Positions 3,328 through 64,000 of a DNA stretch of 64,000 nt are shown here, piece by piece; position 1 is the first letter of the stretch; each line of letters opens with the position of its first letter. Both the position numbers and the translations under genes were made by a program. The notes below the pieces were generated by a model. That model searched no databases. It saw only the letters and a list, made by a program, of their open reading frames with translations, and had not been told where the DNA came from. Origin of the DNA: Dictyostelium discoideum (lineage: Eukaryota); the NCBI GenBank assembly GCA_000004695.1, contig CM000152.2, positions 1,184,001 through 1,248,000 of the forward strand, given 5' to 3'.

Positions 3328-5572
<2,245 letters not shown>

Positions 5573-58816: not shown

Positions 58817-59061
58817 GAAATTAAAAATAAGACACTGTTGTGAAAAAAAAAAAAATTATTTCGAAAATTTTTTATATTTATAAAATTTCATCACTTCCAT
58901 TGTGGATCATTTGATAAAAATAATTAATCGAAATAATCACCCGTTTTTTTTTGTACATATAATTCCAACACCCAAAATAATATAAATATATATAAATTAA
59001 ATTAGATTAAATCAAATCAAATCAAAATCAAATATAATAAAATAAAATAAAATAAAATAAA

Positions 59062-59559
59062 ATGGTAAATTATCTTATGTATATTTTTTTTTTTTTTTTT
59101 TACATAGAATAAAATAGAAGCATTAGTACCAAAAGCTTTTTATATAAAAAGTGGGATCAATAAAACTAATCTTTTTTTTTTTTATTTACATAGAGCAAAA
59201 TAGAAGCATTAGCACCAAAACCTTTTTTATATGATTTAAAAGGTAAAAAGATAGCAGTTCGTTTAAAGTGGGGTGGTATGGAATATCGTGGTATTTTAGC
59301 ATCAGTTGATAGTTATATGAATTTACAAGTATGATTCAAACTTTATTTATTCATTTTTTCAATATTATTATAATATCTATATAATACTAATTTAATTTCT
59401 ATTTTTAATTTTAATTTTTAGTTAGCAGCAACAGAAGAATGGATAGATGGCGCAAATAAAGGTCCATTAGGTGAAGTTTTAATTAGATGTAATAATGTTT
59501 TATTTGTTAGAGGAATTGATGACGAGCAACAACAATCACAACAACAACAACAAGAATAA
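59062..59559 (+). CDS. snrpF: Small nuclear ribonucleoprotein SmF. Exons 59062..59064 (ATG only), 59194..59328, 59422..59559.
   Basis: The spliced product '[46 protein letters not shown]|[38 protein letters not shown]...' is near-identical in register to human SmF '[70 protein letters not shown]'. Donors are ATG|GTAAAT and CAA|GTATGA. Acceptors are catAG at 59193 and tttAG at 59421. Confidence 0.75.
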
Positions 59560-59678: not shown

Positions 59679-60853
59679 TTATTTATCTCTTTTATAAATT
59701 TTTGATAATATTTTTAAAAATACGCTTGGAGGTAAATAAATACAAGTGGTTTTAATTTTATCTATTAAAAAATTGTAACTTGTATTTTCATAATCTTTGA
59801 AAATTTTTTCAAGATTAATTTCTTTATAAATCTTTTTTACAATTTCAACATCAGTTGGATTATCGAAACCATAATGTTTTTTTAATAAATTGATTTGGTC
59901 TGGAGTACCATTGAGAATTGCTTGACAAATCATCCATGAACATTTATTCTCTTCAATATCTCTACCGATTTTACCAAATACTTCTGGTGAACCATAACAA
60001 TCTAAGAAATCATCTTGAACTTGAAAATATACACCCATTGGTAATAAAATATCTTTTGCTGTTGTAAATGCTTGTTCATGGTTTATTTTGGACATTAACA
60101 TTGCTAGTGCAACTGGAAAAAAAAATGAATAATATGCTGTTTTATATTCAGTAATTCTAGTATGACTATAAAAAATAAAATTAATTAATCACACAGACAC
60201 ACATATGTTAATTAAATCTAAAACATATTAATAATAATAAAAATAATAATAATAATTATAAATACAAACTTTTTTAAATTAATTGATGAGAAATCACCTC
60301 TAATTGGTTGAGTTGTTAAATCTAATAATTGACCTAATTGAGTTTGAAATCCGGTTTTATGGAATAATTCTACAATATTTAAATAGTAGGATTCATTTTT
60401 AAAGTATTTTTCAAGTAAAATAAAAACACATGATTCAATTATAAAGGAATCATTAATTGCAGCTAAACCAACTTCTTGATCAGAGTTTGGTCTCTTTTGT
60501 TTATACCAACATGGTTTACCCCTTCTTTTTAGTGACTGATCCATTATATCATCAGAGACCAAATAGCATGCTTGAAATATTTCAACACACCAACCCAATG
60601 TTTGGGCTTGGAAAATTTCATGTCTTGTTAGAGCTCTACCTTCATTTAATGATTCCAATGATTCAAGTACACTAATTCCTCTATTCATTTTTCCACCTGT
60701 TGAATTTGCTTTTATCACGGTTTCAATCCAGTGGATTGATTCTTTTGGAAAATCAATCTTTTCCAATTCCTTTTTAATTTCATTTAATAAAATTGGGAAC
60801 AAATTAGCAAATTCTTCCAAAACTTCTTTATCATTCTTTTTCAAATTATTCAT
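59679..60853 (-). CDS. Farnesyl diphosphate synthase (polyprenyl synthetase), paralog A. Exons on the minus strand: 60853..60270 and 60165..59679.
   Basis: The first Asp-rich motif is 'LGWCVEIFQACYLVSDDIMDQSLKRRGKPCWY' and the second is 'FQVQDDFLDCYG'. 'GKIGRDIEENKCSW' and the C-terminus 'KIYKRDK' fit the FPPS consensus. Donor AA|GTTTGT is at 60269 (phase 2) and acceptor tatAG at 60166. The junction reads '...[33 protein letters not shown]...'. Confidence 0.8.
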
Positions 60854-60920
60854 TTCTTTTTTAAAAAGATAATCTATAAAAAATAAAAAATAAAAAATAA
60901 TAATGATAATTATTATAAAT

Positions 60921-60923
60921 AAA

Positions 60924-60966
<43 letters not shown>

Positions 60967-60980
60967 TAATAATAATAATG

Positions 60981-61041
<61 letters not shown>

Positions 61042-61050
61042 AAATAGAAA
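60921..61050. repeat. (AAT)n intergenic microsatellite between the two FPPS paralogs.
   Basis: A near-perfect AAT run of about 43 units. Confidence 0.9.
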
Positions 61051-61342
61051 TGATAAAAAAAAATAAGAAATTTAAAGAAAATGAAAATAAATAATTTTTA
61101 ATGCAATTGTAAAAAAAATAATTAAATGTGGATTTAATATTTTATTTTTTTATTTTTTTTATTAGGTGGTATTAATATATAATTAATATTATCCGATAAT
61201 TATTTTTTTAAAAAAAATCTTAATGTGGTTAAAAAGGTTTGTTGTATATAATAATAAGTTTTATTATTATTTGGTAGTTATTGTAATTGAGAATTACTGA
61301 CAGGACTTACTTGTGGGATGACAATATAACCTTTAACAGACT

Positions 61343-61377
<35 letters not shown>

Positions 61378-61548
61378 TCAGTCAAAAAAATTTGGAAATA
61401 ATCACAACAGTTTAAAATTTAATTTTTGTAATTATTATTTTTTTTTTAATTATTTTTTAATTTTATTGTATTGTTATTATTATTATTATTATTTTTTTTT
61501 TTTAAAAAAAAAATTTAAATATTTTTAAAATAGAAAATAAAAAAAAAT

Positions 61549-62725
61549 TTATAAATCTCTTTTATAAATCTTTGATAATAATTTAATGAAAACTTCTTGT
61601 GGCATAATTCTAACTGATTTGATCTTACTGATAAGGAAAGCATAGGATTCATCTTCATAATCTTTGAAGATCTTTTTGAGACCAATTTCACCATAAATCT
61701 TTTTAACTAATTCTACATCAGTTGGATTATCGAGACCATAATGTTTTTTTAATAAATTGATTTGTTCTGGTGTACCATTGAGAATTGCTTGACAAATCAT
61801 CCATGAACATTTATTCTCTTCAATATCTCTACCAATTTTACCAATAACAGCTGGTGAACCATAACAATCTAAGAAATCATCTTGAACTTGGAAGAATTCA
61901 CCCATTGGTAATAAAATATCTTTTGCTGTTGAAAATGCTGGTGTACTAGTAATACCTGCCATTAACATTGCTAATGCAACTGGTAAATAAAATGAATAAT
62001 ATGCAGTTTTATATTTAACAATACGACGATAACTTTTAAATAAAAAAAAAAATATATTAGTATTTTGTATATATAATAAATATTTAATATATATATATAT
62101 ATATATATAATCTAAAAATATATATTTACGTATTTAAAGTGAATAATGAGAAATCACCTCTATTTGGTTGAGTTGTTAAATCTAATAATTGACCTAATTC
62201 AGTTTGATAAGATGTTTCATGGAAAATATCTAAGATATCAGCATAGTATGGTTCATTTCTAAAGTATTTTTTAATGAGGATATAGATGCAAGATTCCAAG
62301 ATGAAAGAATCATTAATTGCAATTGAACCAATGGTACCATTGTTTGAGATTGGATTTGCTTGTCTATACCAACATGGTTGACCTCTACGAGTGATCGATT
62401 GATCCATAATATCATCAGCAACTAAAAAGAATGCTTGAAGCCATTCGACACACCAACCTAAAACATTTGCTAAAAAGATTTCGCTACGTGATAATTGACG
62501 ACCTTCAACTAATAATTGAAGTGAGTGGAGTACGGTGAGACCACGATTCATTTTACCACCTGAAACATTAACATTGATCATCTTTTCAACCCATGCAATT
62601 GTTTGTGGTGGCATGTCCATACCTGGTAATTCCTTTAAGATTTCATTGGTTAAAATTGGGAAAATCTCCACAAAATCTGCTAATTCTTCTTTTGCTGTCT
62701 TTATTGGTGCTGATGTTTGGTTCAT
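61549..62725 (-). CDS. Farnesyl diphosphate synthase, paralog B, the second member of the tandem pair. Exons on the minus strand: 62725..62130 and 62032..61549.
   Basis: 'MNQTSAPIKTAKEELADFVEIFP...' aligns with the mature N-terminus of human FPPS ('MNGDQNSDVYAQEKQDFVQHF'). It carries 'LGWCVEWLQAFFLVADDIMDQSITRRGQPCWY' and 'FQVQDDFLDCYG'. Donor AC|GTAAAT is at 62129 and acceptor aaAG at 62033. The junction reads '...[34 protein letters not shown]...', collinear with human 'RYKSIVKYKTAFYSFYLP'. The intron position matches paralog A. Confidence 0.8.
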
Positions 62726-63145
62726 GTTTAATTCTAAATATAAAAACAAATATAAAAATATAGAATAAAAAAATAAAAAATAAAAAAAAATAAAAAAATA
62801 AAAAATTGTTTTTTTTTTTTTTAAACAATTAAACAATTTAAAAAAAGAAGGGGTTTTTAAATGGGATAAAAAAAAAAAAAATAAAAAAAAAAATAAAAAT
62901 TTATAAAAAAAAAAATGGGTTAATATTTTTGAGTTAAGGCACAACACAATACAAATAAGGTTATGTAAGTAACATAATAAAAAAAATAAATAAATAAAAA
63001 AAAACAATAAATTTTTTTTTTAACAAAAGAAAATAAAAATAAAAAAATTAAAAATAAAAATTTTATGATTATTAATTTTTTTTTTTTTTTTTTTTTTATA
63101 ATTTAATTAAAAATAGAAAATCTATTAATAGTTTATAATACAAAC

Positions 63146-63206
63146 CTGAAGTTGGAGCTAAGTGTTCAGATATCATAGCAGCTCTTTGGAGTGATTGGTT
63201 GTTCAT
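63146..63206 (-). CDS. Candidate alternative or upstream coding exon (20 codons plus 1 nt), possibly an N-terminal extension of FPPS paralog B.
   Basis: A roughly 45% GC island in the AT desert reads 'ATGAACAACCAATCACTCCAAAGAGCTGCTATGATATCTGAACACTTAGCTCCAACTTCAG' (MNNQSLQRAAMISEHLAPTS) and is followed by a GTTTGT donor. An acceptor tatttAG at 62735-62734 would join it in frame (G+AA) to '...LNMNQTSAPIK' of FPPS-B. There is no other downstream exon candidate before FPPS-B. Confidence 0.3.
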
Positions 63207-63274
63207 TTGTTATTTATGACAATCGTCTATTTTTTCAAAACGTGATAAAAACAAAAATAAAAAAAAAAAAATCA

Positions 63275-63318
<44 letters not shown>

Positions 63319-63335
63319 AAAAAATGAAAAAAAAT

Positions 63336-63367
<32 letters not shown>

Positions 63368-64000
63368 TAAAATAAAATAAAGGTTTCCCACTTATCAATG
63401 ATTGAAAGTTATTTGTTCTATTTTTATTTATTTTTATTCATTTTTTTATTTTTTATTTTTTATTTTTTTATGTTCTGTTTTAAATTTAATTTAAAAAATA
63501 AACCAATTATGATAATTGTAGACTCCAATTTTATTTTGAATTAATTTTTTAATTTTTTTTTTTGAAAACACACAATTTTGAATTTCCCGCTTTTTTTTCA
63601 CAGTTATAATTTGAAAAAAATGTTTTTATTTTTTTCTTTTTTTTTTTAATTAAATTAATTTTTTTCTTTTTTTTTTTTAATATTTTTTTTTCTTATTCTA
63701 ATTTTTTTTTTTTTTTTTTTTTTTTTTTCTCTATAATTAATTAAACTGAATATCAATCTATATATTAATTTTTAACAAACAAATAAACAAAAAAAAAATA
63801 AAAATAAAAATAAAAAAAAAAAAAAAATAATAAATTAATAAATTAATTGGAAAAAAAAAAAAAAAAAAAAAAAGAAATAATAAATCGGAACATGTAAGTT
63901 ATACAACACTTTATCAATTTTAATTTTTTTTTTTTTTTTTCCTATATAAACATATAAATACATAGATGGGATTCGAAGTTAACTTTTTTTTTTTTTTTTT

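What the first reader, a model, noticed from the sequence alone, without database searches (positions are those of the whole stretch)
59679..62725. Tandem duplicated farnesyl diphosphate synthase genes with conserved intron position
Two complete FPPS genes lie head-to-tail on the minus strand about 700 bp apart. Each has the two Asp-rich motifs and a single intron at the identical codon position, so the duplication post-dates intron gain. The proteins have diverged substantially: paralog A has 'FQACYLVSDD' where paralog B has the canonical 'LQAFFLVADD'. The aromatic residues at the fourth and fifth positions upstream of the first DDxxD determine chain length in prenyl synthases, so A (Cys-Tyr) may make a different-length product than B (Phe-Phe). 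FPPS is the target of nitrogen-containing bisphosphonates, and copy number or paralog divergence is directly relevant to drug sensitivity.
Basis: partly seen in the sequence, partly recalled or inferred. Interest (0 to 1): 0.65.

Follow-up and report, generated by a model that had tools for sequence, protein, structure and literature searches.

The report
Tandem FPP synthase genes, diverged copy
These are the known peroxisomal farnesyl diphosphate synthase gene (fps) of Dictyostelium discoideum and its annotated but unstudied neighbour DDB_G0278823, an intact duplicate that lacks the peroxisome-targeting exon and has an altered chain-length pocket, so it may make a longer product in a different compartment.

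Summary
Two intact FPPS-type genes lie head to tail on the minus strand, 695 bp apart, and are 68% identical in protein. Exact protein look-ups identify D. discoideum AX4 fps (Q9NH03) and DDB_G0278823 (Q54XP1, "Probable FPPS"), so the pair is already annotated.

Corrections and additions:
It encodes the experimentally proven PTS2 peroxisomal signal. fps therefore has two introns and 382 aa.
- The paralog has no such exon.
- The shared phase-2 intron is also present in the single-copy D. purpureum gene, so it predates the duplication.
- Synteny places the duplication in the D. discoideum/citrinum/firmibasis/dimigraforme clade.
- The paralog is intact in 8 genomes and keeps all 56 invariant FPPS residues. 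Its dN/dS is 0.14-0.51, against 0.00-0.12 for fps.
- It is listed as developmentally up-regulated in RNA-seq and was detected once by proteomics, in fruiting bodies.
- The Phe-Phe to Cys-Tyr change occurs only in D. discoideum and D. cf. discoideum. It matches the rare arrangement of the bifunctional Toxoplasma FPPS/GGPPS.
- The 3' third of the paralogs shows gene conversion.

The product shift and the cytosolic location are inferences and were not tested. Interest is moderate.

The parts
It encodes MNNQSLQRAAMISEHLAPTS plus 1 nt. The PTS2 nonapeptide RAAMISEHL is at 63159..63185.
   Evidence: The spliced model translates exactly to Q9NH03/XP_641990. PTS2 function was shown experimentally in PMC3465988.
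62734..63145 (-). fps intron 1 (412 nt, GT..AG, phase 1)
   Evidence: It is conserved in all fps orthologues examined, at 389-710 nt.
62130..62733 (-). fps exon 2.
62033..62129 (-). fps intron 2 (97 nt, phase 2, after ...FTLN). This is the intron shared with the paralog.
   Evidence: The same position and phase occur in the single-copy D. purpureum gene.
61549..62032 (-). fps exon 3, with SARM DDFLD (61867..61881) and the stop codon. The stretch 61738..61932 is the part with low synonymous divergence from the paralog.
60854..61548 (-). 695-bp intergenic spacer (10% G+C) containing an (AAT)48 microsatellite at 60896..61039. It holds no relic of the PTS2 exon.
60270..60853 (-). DDB_G0278823 (gene A) exon 1. 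Its start Met is homologous to fps Met24. It contains the chain-length pair Cys96 (60566..60568) and Tyr97 (60563..60565) and FARM D101-D105 (down to 60539).
   Evidence: The translation is identical to Q54XP1/XP_641989.
60166..60269 (-). Gene A intron (104 nt, GT..AG, phase 2), homologous in position to fps intron 2. Its sequence is not similar beyond chance.
59679..60165 (-). Gene A exon 2, with SARM DDFLD (60000..60014) and the stop codon. The stretch 59871..60065 is the part kept close to fps (dS about 0.1-0.25; a 62-nt identical run).

Best explanation
The locus is the D. discoideum AX4 pair fps -> DDB_G0278823.

Origin. A tandem duplication of the ancestral three-exon fps gene arose in the lineage leading to D. 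discoideum, D. citrinum, D. firmibasis and D. dimigraforme. It most likely happened after that lineage split from D. purpureum. The copy lies between fps and snrpF. It starts at the codon homologous to fps Met24, so it lacks the exon that encodes the PTS2 peroxisomal import signal.

fps remains the strongly constrained, peroxisomal housekeeping FPP synthase and the bisphosphonate target.

The copy is a catalytically competent short-chain trans-prenyl diphosphate synthase under roughly ten-fold weaker purifying selection. It is switched on during multicellular development. It is predicted (inference) to act in the cytosol unless it is carried into peroxisomes as a heterodimer with fps.

In the D. 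discoideum / D. cf. discoideum lineage only, the two aromatic residues that floor the product pocket changed from Phe-Phe to Cys-Tyr. This is the arrangement of the bifunctional Toxoplasma FPPS/GGPPS. The predicted consequence (inference, untested) is elongation beyond C15, giving FPP plus GGPP.

Recurrent gene conversion from the neighbour keeps the SARM-containing 3' third nearly identical to fps. The FARM and chain-length half diverges freely.
For: Identity: exact protein matches to Q54XP1 and Q9NH03.

Family:
- PF00348 at E = 1e-73 to 1e-77.
- Avian and human FPPS at E = 1e-90.
- AF2 model with pLDDT 91 and TM 0.91-0.95 to human FPPS.
- All 56 columns invariant in 45 FPPS homologues are retained in all A proteins checked.

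PTS2:
- The signal in exon 1 of fps is proven by mutagenesis (PMC3465988).
- A and its orthologues in 8 genomes lack it, and the spacer holds no relic.

Timing:
- fps->A->LSM gene synteny is seen in 7 genomes of the clade.
- D. purpureum and P. violaceum have fps->LSM.
- In the 3' tree partitions, A plus B of the clade exclude D. purpureum with 91-93% bootstrap.

Selection:
- Pairwise dN/dS is 0.14-0.51 for A and 0.00-0.12 for B.
- Bootstrap upper bounds for A are below 0.6.
- The McDonald-Kreitman test gives Dn/Ds 97/47 against Pn/Ps 15/17, p = 0.04 and 0.014.

Chain-length residues:
- C96/Y97 align with avian F112/F113.
- CY is found only in the 5 D. discoideum-complex A proteins among 124 homologues. 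Other A orthologues have FF.
- Cys at -5 with Phe or Tyr at -4 is the rare Toxoplasma arrangement, and the Cys is needed for GGPP formation there (PMC3679732; PMC11048977; PMC3030337).

Expression:
- A is listed among up-regulated genes in filter and suspension development (PMC4403905, Additional file 7).
- The protein was detected in one fruiting-body sample (PMC12821622, S1).

Gene conversion:
- dS is about 1 in the 5' half and about 0.2 in fps (B) codons 206-340.
- Identical runs are 62, 156 and 164 nt, with permutation p = 0.007 to 2e-4.
- Species-specific variants are shared between A and B in D. citrinum and D. firmibasis.
Against: - No enzymology or localisation exists for this protein. 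The product shift rests only on analogy.
- Chain length is not set by these two residues alone. PMC3679732 notes FF (maize) and FS (Methanobacterium) enzymes that also make GGPP.
- Tyr at -4 and other pocket changes (Y210F, S168G, Y144F) could compensate.
- Raised dN/dS, 3-4% amino-acid polymorphism among D. discoideum strains, and detection in only 1 of 10 proteome samples also fit a weakly constrained, nearly redundant copy.
- The McDonald-Kreitman signal is marginal. It is confounded by synonymous saturation and by gene conversion.
- 5' dS between A and B is as large as between fps of D. discoideum and D. purpureum. An older duplication with loss in D. purpureum is therefore not excluded.
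- RNA-seq reads and peptides from the converted region could be mis-assigned between the paralogs.
- Wild-type amoebae are fully growth-inhibited by alendronate (PMC3465988), so the copy does not substitute for fps during growth.
Confidence: 0.6

Rival explanations
1. Redundant duplicate drifting under relaxed constraint. DDB_G0278823 is an ordinary FPP synthase copy with little or no distinct role. The Cys-Tyr change and other replacements are tolerated, nearly neutral changes, and the gene is slowly decaying.
For: - dN/dS is about ten-fold higher than for fps, and a three-taxon decomposition of the values puts the D. discoideum branch at about 0.58.
- There are 12-14 amino-acid differences among three D. 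discoideum strains, against 0-1 for fps.
- Protein was seen in only one of ten proteome samples.
- One D. cf. discoideum allele changes the nearly invariant Gln just before SARM (QVQDD to QATDD).
- Alendronate blocks growth despite the copy (PMC3465988).
Against: - The ORF and splice sites are intact in 8 genomes spanning dS of about 0.4.
- All 56 invariant FPPS positions are kept.
- The upper confidence bounds of dN/dS lie well below 1.
- The gene is developmentally regulated at the RNA level.
- The McDonald-Kreitman test shows an excess of fixed replacements rather than an excess of replacement polymorphism.
Confidence: 0.25
2. Pure subfunctionalisation by compartment and timing. The copy is a cytosolic, development-specific FPP synthase that still makes only FPP, for example to feed the cytosolic terpene synthases. 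The Cys-Tyr change is functionally silent.
For: - A orthologues in D. citrinum, D. firmibasis and D. dimigraforme keep Phe-Phe yet have been retained without PTS2. The ancestral reason for retention therefore cannot be the chain-length change.
- D. discoideum terpene synthases act during multicellular development and mostly use FPP (PMC6156593).
- A is up-regulated in development.
Against: - Both pocket-floor residues are among only 11 sites where the D. discoideum complex replaced a residue otherwise invariant in all A and B sequences of the clade.
- Cys at -5 is what confers GGPP synthesis in the Toxoplasma enzyme, and a small residue at -5 converts a yeast FPPS into an FPP/GGPP enzyme.
Confidence: 0.3
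3. Neofunctionalised FPPS-like protein that is no longer a prenyl-chain elongase. It could be an IDS-like terpene synthase, as in leaf beetles, stink bugs and some fungi. Alternatively it could be a non-catalytic partner that heterodimerises with fps and is carried into peroxisomes.
For: - The IDS-like terpene synthases I recall from the literature (my knowledge; PMC7484799 is listed but was not read) also derive from FPPS duplicates that lost the aromatic pair.
- PMC3465988 suggests that PTS2-less FDPS can enter peroxisomes by dimerising with PTS2-bearing monomers.
Against: - The residues corresponding by alignment to the IPP- and allylic-substrate-binding residues of human FPPS are all retained. 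These are K55, R58, Q94, R110/R111, K203, T204, Y207, Q243 and K260, plus the basic C-terminal tail KRDK. The functional assignment of these residues is from my knowledge.
- Both Asp-rich motifs are canonical.
- The heterodimer idea is compatible with catalysis, so it is not a separate function.
Confidence: 0.07

Closest known systems
Dictyostelium discoideum FDPS (fps, UniProt Q9NH03), the peroxisomal bisphosphonate target
   Same: The upstream gene is this protein exactly. The downstream gene is its tandem paralog. It is 68% identical, has the same fold, the same FARM and SARM motifs, the same phase-2 intron, and a nearly identical C-terminal third.
   Different: - The paralog lacks the PTS2 exon.
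- It has Cys-Tyr instead of Phe-Phe at the chain-length positions.
- It evolves about ten times faster at the protein level.
- It appears to be expressed in development rather than as a housekeeping enzyme.
Toxoplasma gondii bifunctional FPPS/GGPPS (TgFPPS; Ling et al. 2007, Li et al. 2012, as cited in PMC3679732, PMC3030337 and PMC11048977)
   Same: It is an FPPS-type sequence, not a GGPPS-type one. It has Cys at position -5 and an aromatic residue at -4 before FARM. PMC3679732 found that arrangement in only 6 of 452 FPPS sequences and ties it to GGPP formation.
   Different: - TgFPPS has Phe, not Tyr, at -4.
- It carries parasite-specific insertions.
- It is not a recent tandem duplicate. 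The Dictyostelium change arose independently within one species complex.
- The product of the Dictyostelium enzyme is unknown.
Avian FPPS chain-length mutants F112A/F113S (PDB 1UBV-1UBY; Tarshis et al. 1996, from my knowledge)
   Same: Cys96/Tyr97 align exactly with F112/F113. Shrinking these residues lengthens the product in the engineered enzyme.
   Different: Those are laboratory mutants with Ala and Ser. Here the change is natural, only position -5 is small, and -4 stays aromatic.
Plasmodium FPPS/GGPPS (PvGGPPS, PfFPPS/GGPPS)
   Same: It is an FPPS-like enzyme with a mixed pair, a small residue at -5 and an aromatic at -4. [quoted passage not shown]
   Different: It has Ser-Phe rather than Cys-Tyr. 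It is the only such enzyme in the parasite, whereas D. discoideum keeps a canonical FPPS alongside.
IDS-like terpene synthases derived from FPPS duplicates (beetles, stink bugs, fungi; PMC7484799, listed but not read, so the properties given here are from my knowledge)
   Same: They originate by duplication of an FPPS gene and lose the aromatic pair before FARM.
   Different: Those enzymes lose IPP-binding residues. DDB_G0278823 keeps all of them.

Membership tests
Polyprenyl synthetase superfamily (Pfam PF00348), FPPS-type subfamily | Full-length match to PF00348 above the gathering score, with closest solved relatives being FPPS rather than GGPPS or long-chain synthases | tested here: met
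   - A scores 245.6 bits and B 259.1 bits, against a cut-off of 27.
- A matches avian and human FPPS at E = 1e-89 to 1e-90.
- Chains named geranylgeranyl diphosphate synthase match at E = 1e-10 or weaker.
Polyprenyl synthetase superfamily (Pfam PF00348), FPPS-type subfamily | All-alpha isoprenoid synthase fold | tested here: met
   The AF2 model of A has pLDDT 91.4 and pTM 0.90. Foldseek top hits are human FPPS at TM 0.91-0.95 and rmsd 1.6-1.9 A.
Polyprenyl synthetase superfamily (Pfam PF00348), FPPS-type subfamily | Two Asp-rich motifs (FARM DDxxD, SARM DDxxD) and the conserved substrate-binding Lys/Arg/Gln/Thr/Tyr residues | tested here: met
   - A has DDIMD at 101-105 and DDFLD at 246-250. 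B has them at 127-131 and 273-277.
- A retains all 56 columns invariant in 45 homologues.
Type I (eukaryotic) FPPS as defined by the chain-length-determination rule (Wang and Ohnuma 1999, as summarised in PMC3679732) | Aromatic residues at both the 5th and the 4th position before FARM | tested here: not met
   B (fps) has Phe122-Phe123 and meets the rule. A has Cys96-Tyr97, so position -5 is not aromatic. By this rule A is not a canonical type I FPPS, although its orthologues in three sister species are.
Type I (eukaryotic) FPPS | FPP (C15) as the final product in enzyme assays | not testable with these tools
   No biochemical data exist for DDB_G0278823. No paper in the searched library mentions it.
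Bifunctional FPPS/GGPPS of the Toxoplasma type | FPPS-like sequence with Cys at -5 and Phe or Tyr at -4 before FARM | tested here: met
   The sequence is FQACYLVSDD. PMC3679732 describes exactly this arrangement as that of the Toxoplasma enzyme and as rare, at 6 of 452 sequences.
Bifunctional FPPS/GGPPS of the Toxoplasma type | Formation of both FPP and GGPP, dependent on the Cys | not testable with these tools
   This needs recombinant enzyme assays of the wild type and the C96F mutant.
PTS2-targeted peroxisomal FDPS of dictyostelids | N-terminal nonapeptide R-[LIVQA]-x5-H-L within the first ~20 residues | tested here: not met
   - fps has RAAMISEHL at residues 8-16, encoded by exon 1.
- A starts at the residue homologous to fps Met24 and has no such motif.
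- None occurs in the 695-bp spacer.
- All A orthologues also lack it.
   Tyr is retained at -4. Homology to GGPPS chains is about 80 orders of magnitude weaker than to FPPS.
Pseudogene | Frameshifts, premature stops, lost splice sites, or dN/dS not different from 1 | tested here: not met
   The ORF and GT..AG intron are intact in 8 genomes. Bootstrap intervals for dN/dS are 0.07-0.57.
IDS-like terpene synthases | Loss of IPP-binding residues in an FPPS-derived protein | tested here: not met
   The positions aligning with the IPP-binding residues of human FPPS (K55, R58, R111, Q94, and the basic C-terminal tail) are retained. Their assignment as IPP-binding residues is from my knowledge.

The most novel reading that the evidence does not exclude
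Within the D. discoideum species complex, a young PTS2-less FPPS duplicate has convergently acquired the Toxoplasma-type Cys/aromatic pocket floor, possibly under positive selection. It now works as a cytosolic, development-specific bifunctional FPP/GGPP (or longer) synthase. In that role it would supply late-stage terpenoid synthesis or protein prenylation outside the peroxisome. Gene conversion from fps would keep its catalytic C-terminal half intact. Sister species that still have Phe-Phe would serve as built-in controls for a change of product specificity caught in progress.
Probability: 0.25. Interest if true: 0.55.

Novelty: new member of a known kind. Interest (0 to 1): 0.35.

Why it matters
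D. discoideum is the organism in which FPP synthase was first shown to be the target of nitrogen-containing bisphosphonates (stated in PMC3465988). Its FDPS is one of the clearest cases of a peroxisomal FPP synthase.

A second, intact, PTS2-less FPPS gene next door has not been considered in that work; PMC3465988 does not mention it. It bears on several questions:
- where FPP and GGPP are made in the cell;
- how PTS2-deleted FDPS still reaches peroxisomes, since heterodimers are possible;
- how drug-resistance experiments should be interpreted.

The natural Phe-Phe to Cys-Tyr switch has close relatives that retain Phe-Phe. This gives a clean comparative system for testing the chain-length rule in a eukaryotic FPPS.

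The practical importance is modest. The gene is already annotated, FPPS duplicates with altered product length are a known phenomenon, and D. discoideum, as far as I recall, has a separate GGPPS gene.

Tried and rejected
- A full-text search for DDB_G0278823 found no paper.
- Li et al. 2012 (PMC4618988), the primary source for the Toxoplasma Cys mutant, is not held. I relied on three papers that cite it.
- An NCBIfam scan gave only sub-threshold matches to prokaryotic models and was uninformative.
- The cell-type RNA-seq supplement (PMC6198379) does not list the gene.
- Searches for a relic of the PTS2 exon or a PTS2-like motif in the spacer found none.
- Intron, 5' flank and 3' flank similarity between the paralogs is not above shuffled controls. 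The duplication boundaries cannot be mapped.
- Strict concerted evolution, with A and B grouping by species, was tested with partitioned NJ trees and rejected. A and B form separate clades in every partition. Conversion is therefore patchy, not homogenising.
- The GGPPS/coq1 identity, the pseudogene reading and the IDS-like terpene synthase reading were considered and rejected (see the membership tests).
- I could not establish the exact filter-development time point at which the gene is up-regulated. Only the sheet (filter_UP) and, for suspension, the column (UP_Hr10_rapid) could be read from the stored text.
Full report
**1. What is in the sequence**

The window is AT-rich (22% G+C). On the minus strand between 63206 and 59679 there are two polyprenyl-synthase genes.

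I spliced the downstream gene ("A") as 60853..60270 + 60165..59679. Its intron is 104 nt, GT..AG, phase 2. The product is a 356-aa protein.

It gives 359 aa. Orthologues found are 382-384 aa and begin MNNQSLQRAAMISEHL. That peptide is encoded by a 61-nt exon at 63206..63146, which is joined over a 412-nt GT..AG intron to 62733.

An exact-sequence look-up shows what the two proteins are:
- The 382-aa three-exon product is identical to D. discoideum AX4 farnesyl diphosphate synthase (XP_641990, UniProt Q9NH03, FPS_DICDI).

**2. Check of the observation**

- The two proteins are 68% identical over 351 residues.
- Both match Pfam PF00348 at E = 1e-73 to 1e-77.
- FARM is DDIMD (A 101-105, B 127-131) and SARM is DDFLD (A 246-250, B 273-277).
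- The residues five and four positions before FARM are Cys96-Tyr97 in A and Phe122-Phe123 in B.
- The shared intron interrupts the homologous codon in phase 2...FTLN|T in B and ...INLK|N in A.
- The spacer is 695 bp.

The exceptions are that fps has a second intron and a further exon, and that the locus extends to 63206.

**3. The missed exon is functionally important**

Residues 8-16 of fps (RAAMISEHL) form a PTS2 peroxisomal import signal. In PMC3465988:
- FDPS-GFP is peroxisomal.
- Residues 1-22 suffice to target GFP.
- The R8A and H15A mutations impair import.
- Import in yeast needs Pex7p.

Gene A begins at the codon homologous to fps Met24 and has no such sequence. The 695-bp spacer contains no relic of the exon and no PTS2-like motif in any forward frame. 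A ends in KRDK, which is not a PTS1-like tripeptide. The clearest difference between the paralogs is therefore targeting information. The default prediction for A is cytosolic.

PMC3465988 also reports residual import of PTS2-less FDPS. The authors suggest dimerisation with PTS2-bearing monomers, so piggy-back import of A with fps cannot be excluded.

**4. Origin and age**

One search found A-type proteins of 356-359 aa without PTS2 in D. cf. discoideum, D. dimigraforme, D. citrinum and D. firmibasis. Each of these species also has a 382-383-aa fps.

Genomic loci show the same order, fps -> A -> (convergent) LSM-domain gene, in these assemblies:
- two D. cf. discoideum assemblies;
- two further D. 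discoideum assemblies;
- D. citrinum, D. firmibasis and D. dimigraforme.

In D. dimigraforme the fps gene is mis-modelled in the annotation but is intact.

In D. purpureum and Polysphondylium violaceum a single fps is followed directly by the LSM gene. In D. discoideum the LSM gene is snrpF, DDB_G0278821. Synteny thus places the duplication in the D. discoideum clade after the split from D. purpureum.

The phase-2 intron is present at the same codon in the single-copy D. purpureum gene and absent in P. violaceum. Intron sequences and flanks of A and B are no more similar than shuffled controls.

**5. Mosaic divergence and gene conversion**

Synonymous divergence between A and B is not uniform:
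- In fps (B) codons 30-205 it is about 0.8-1.5, as large as between fps of D. discoideum and D. purpureum (0.8-1.1).
- In fps (B) codons 206-340 it is only about 0.15-0.5. This is below the D. discoideum-D. purpureum value for the same segments (0.53-0.64).

The longest runs of identical nucleotides between A and B are:
- 62 nt in AX4;
- 156 nt in D. citrinum;
- 164 nt in D. firmibasis.

A Sawyer-type permutation of polymorphic sites gives p = 0.007, 2e-4 and 2e-4 respectively.

In the variable-site table, A of D. firmibasis and A of D. citrinum each share species-specific variants with the fps of the same species. Partitioned NJ trees nevertheless keep A and B as separate clades in all three partitions. 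In the 3' partitions, A plus B of the clade exclude D. purpureum with 91-93% bootstrap. In the 5' partition the position of A relative to D. purpureum is unresolved, at 47%.

My reading is patchy, recurrent gene conversion in the segment that carries SARM and the following helices. The half with FARM and the chain-length residues diverges freely.

Part of the high 5' dS may reflect weaker codon-usage constraint in a weakly expressed gene. An older duplication with loss in D. purpureum is not strictly excluded.

**6. Is the copy functional?**

- Its ORF and splice sites are intact in all 8 genomes.
- In an alignment of 45 FPPS homologues down to 45% identity, 56 columns are invariant, and A has the consensus residue at all of them. 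These include the Lys, Arg, Gln, Thr and Tyr positions that align with the substrate-binding residues of human FPPS (that assignment is from my knowledge) and both Asp-rich motifs. The two D. discoideum alleles not in the alignment also keep them.
- An AlphaFold2 model has pLDDT 91.4 and pTM 0.90, and superposes on human FPPS with TM 0.91-0.95.
- Pairwise dN/dS is 0.14-0.51 for A and 0.00-0.12 for fps.
- Bootstrap intervals for A stay below 0.6. This indicates purifying selection, but roughly ten-fold relaxed.
- Decomposing the distances over D. discoideum, D. citrinum and D. firmibasis gives branch dN/dS of about 0.58, 0.13 and 0.32. The acceleration is strongest on the D. discoideum branch.
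- A McDonald-Kreitman table for A gives fixed 97 replacement / 47 silent against polymorphic 15 / 17 with D. citrinum as outgroup, p = 0.04, and p = 0.014 with D. firmibasis. This suggests some adaptive replacement. fps shows nothing. I treat this as suggestive only, because silent sites are partly saturated and conversion blurs the classes.

*Expression.* Additional file 7 of Rosengarten et al. 2015 (PMC4403905) lists DDB_G0278823 six times among differentially expressed genes. The two occurrences I could place are in the filter_UP sheet and in column UP_Hr10_rapid of the suspension_UP sheet. In the 2026 life-cycle proteome (PMC12821622, spreadsheet S1), Q54XP1 has one abundance value, in replicate 1 of the fruiting-body stage, and NA in the other nine samples. 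The gene is therefore transcribed and developmentally regulated. Evidence for the protein is thin.

**7. The chain-length residues**

In the HMMER alignment to avian FPPS, Cys96 and Tyr97 fall exactly on F112 and F113. The mutant chain 1UBX carries Ala-Ser there.

From the literature:
- The residues at -5 and -4 floor the product pocket and define type I FPPS as having two aromatics (PMC3679732).
- The bifunctional Toxoplasma FPPS/GGPPS has Cys at -5 with an aromatic at -4. That arrangement was found in only 6 of 452 FPPS sequences, and the Cys is essential for GGPP formation (PMC3679732, citing Li et al. 2012).
- Changing that Cys to Tyr gives a pure FPPS. Conversely, Y90A at -5 turns a yeast FPPS into an FPP+GGPP enzyme (PMC11048977).
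- The GGPP-forming Plasmodium enzymes also have a small/large pair (PMC3030337).

Among 124 FPPS homologues retrieved here the pairs are:

| Pair at -5/-4 | Count |
|---|---|
| FF | 102 |
| YF | 8 |
| CY | 5 |
| CF | 1 |
| other single variants | 8 in all |

The CY pair occurs only in the five A proteins of D. discoideum and D. cf. discoideum. The A orthologues of D. citrinum, D. firmibasis and D. dimigraforme still have FF.

F96C and F97Y are two of only eleven positions at which the D. discoideum complex replaced a residue that is otherwise invariant in every other A and every fps of the clade. Others are Y144F, S168G and Y210F.

It applies only to the D. discoideum lineage, it is not why the duplicate was originally kept, and it is untested. 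PMC3679732 also notes that FF and FS enzymes can make GGPP, so these two residues are not the whole story.

**8. Bisphosphonates**

The positions in A that align with the bisphosphonate-contacting residues of human FPPS are conserved. These are the FARM and SARM aspartates, Lys203, Thr204, Tyr207, Gln243 and Lys260. Which residues contact the drug is from my knowledge. I therefore expect A to be sensitive (inference).

Wild-type amoebae do not grow in 80 uM alendronate, and extra FDPS confers resistance (PMC3465988). A therefore does not cover for fps during growth. That fits low or development-restricted expression, or co-inhibition.

**9. Verdict**

The finding is real, and it concerns an annotated gene pair in a model organism. 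None of the added value appears in the literature I could search:
- the paralog lacks the PTS2 exon;
- it is a retained, developmentally regulated, fast-evolving but constrained enzyme gene;
- its Cys-Tyr pocket floor is a recent, lineage-specific change that copies the Toxoplasma bifunctional arrangement;
- the paralogs exchange sequence in their 3' third.

The mechanism I consider most likely is a cytosolic, development-specific FPPS-type enzyme with extended product range. The identity, structure and evolutionary history are shown. The compartment and product length are inferred. Interest is moderate.

Noticed in passing
window ~59000..59556 (+ strand): A small intron-containing gene converges on the 3' end of DDB_G0278823, about 120 bp away, and ends ...[11 protein letters not shown]. 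From conserved synteny (an LSM-domain gene, PF01423, in L002, L004, L008 and L009) and a gene list in PMC6198379, it is snrpF (DDB_G0278821). I did not derive its exon structure.
   Followed up: partly
window 60896..61039: An (AAT)48 microsatellite (91% matches) lies in the spacer just upstream of the DDB_G0278823 start codon. Long homopolymer A/T tracts occur at 61345..61375, 63247..63381, 63623..63728 and 63777..63877. These are typical Dictyostelium intergenic DNA. Any possible effect on expression of the paralog was not examined.
   Followed up: no
L006 6001-7204 (D. cf. discoideum, protein P0123) and L001 6001-7218 (P0001): The two D. cf. discoideum alleles of the paralog differ from each other by 12% of residues. 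P0123 changes the nearly invariant Gln directly before SARM (QVQDD to QATDD) and the following CYGSPEV to CYGKIGV. P0001 has QAQDD. This could reflect relaxed constraint or further functional change in those strains.
   Followed up: partly
L001 693-1997 (D. cf. discoideum GCA_054859235.1): Upstream of fps this assembly has a 434-aa DDE_Tnp_4 (PF13359) transposase gene. The other assemblies have an ~840-865-aa gene on the opposite strand there. This indicates a strain-specific transposon insertion or rearrangement next to the locus.
   Followed up: no
L004 2884-5135 (D. dimigraforme): The public annotation models the fps orthologue as a 447-aa protein with no Pfam hit on record. Six-frame translation shows an intact three-exon fps, with PTS2 exon 1 starting at 3404 and the pocket/FARM motif LQAFFLVSDD. 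The deposited gene model is probably wrong.
   Followed up: partly
Proteins P0013 and P0033 (Acytostelium subglobosum): Acytostelium also has two FPPS-type proteins. One carries a PTS2 (RVAIISSHL, 400 aa). The other lacks it (348 aa, flagged as partial, with Phe-Phe). This may be an independent duplication giving a PTS2-less copy. The N-terminus of the second protein may be incomplete.
   Followed up: no
Cluster 2: The 90%-identity cluster of fps contains four 47-52-aa JGI metagenome fragments. Two of them are named 'transposase-like protein'. This is probably a naming or clustering artefact on short fragments.
   Followed up: no
PMC4403905 Additional file 7: DDB_G0278825 appears directly next to DDB_G0278823 in the same up-regulated gene list of the filter-development experiment. 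If DDB_G0278825 is the fps identifier, both paralogs rise together at that time point. I could not confirm the identifier.
   Followed up: no
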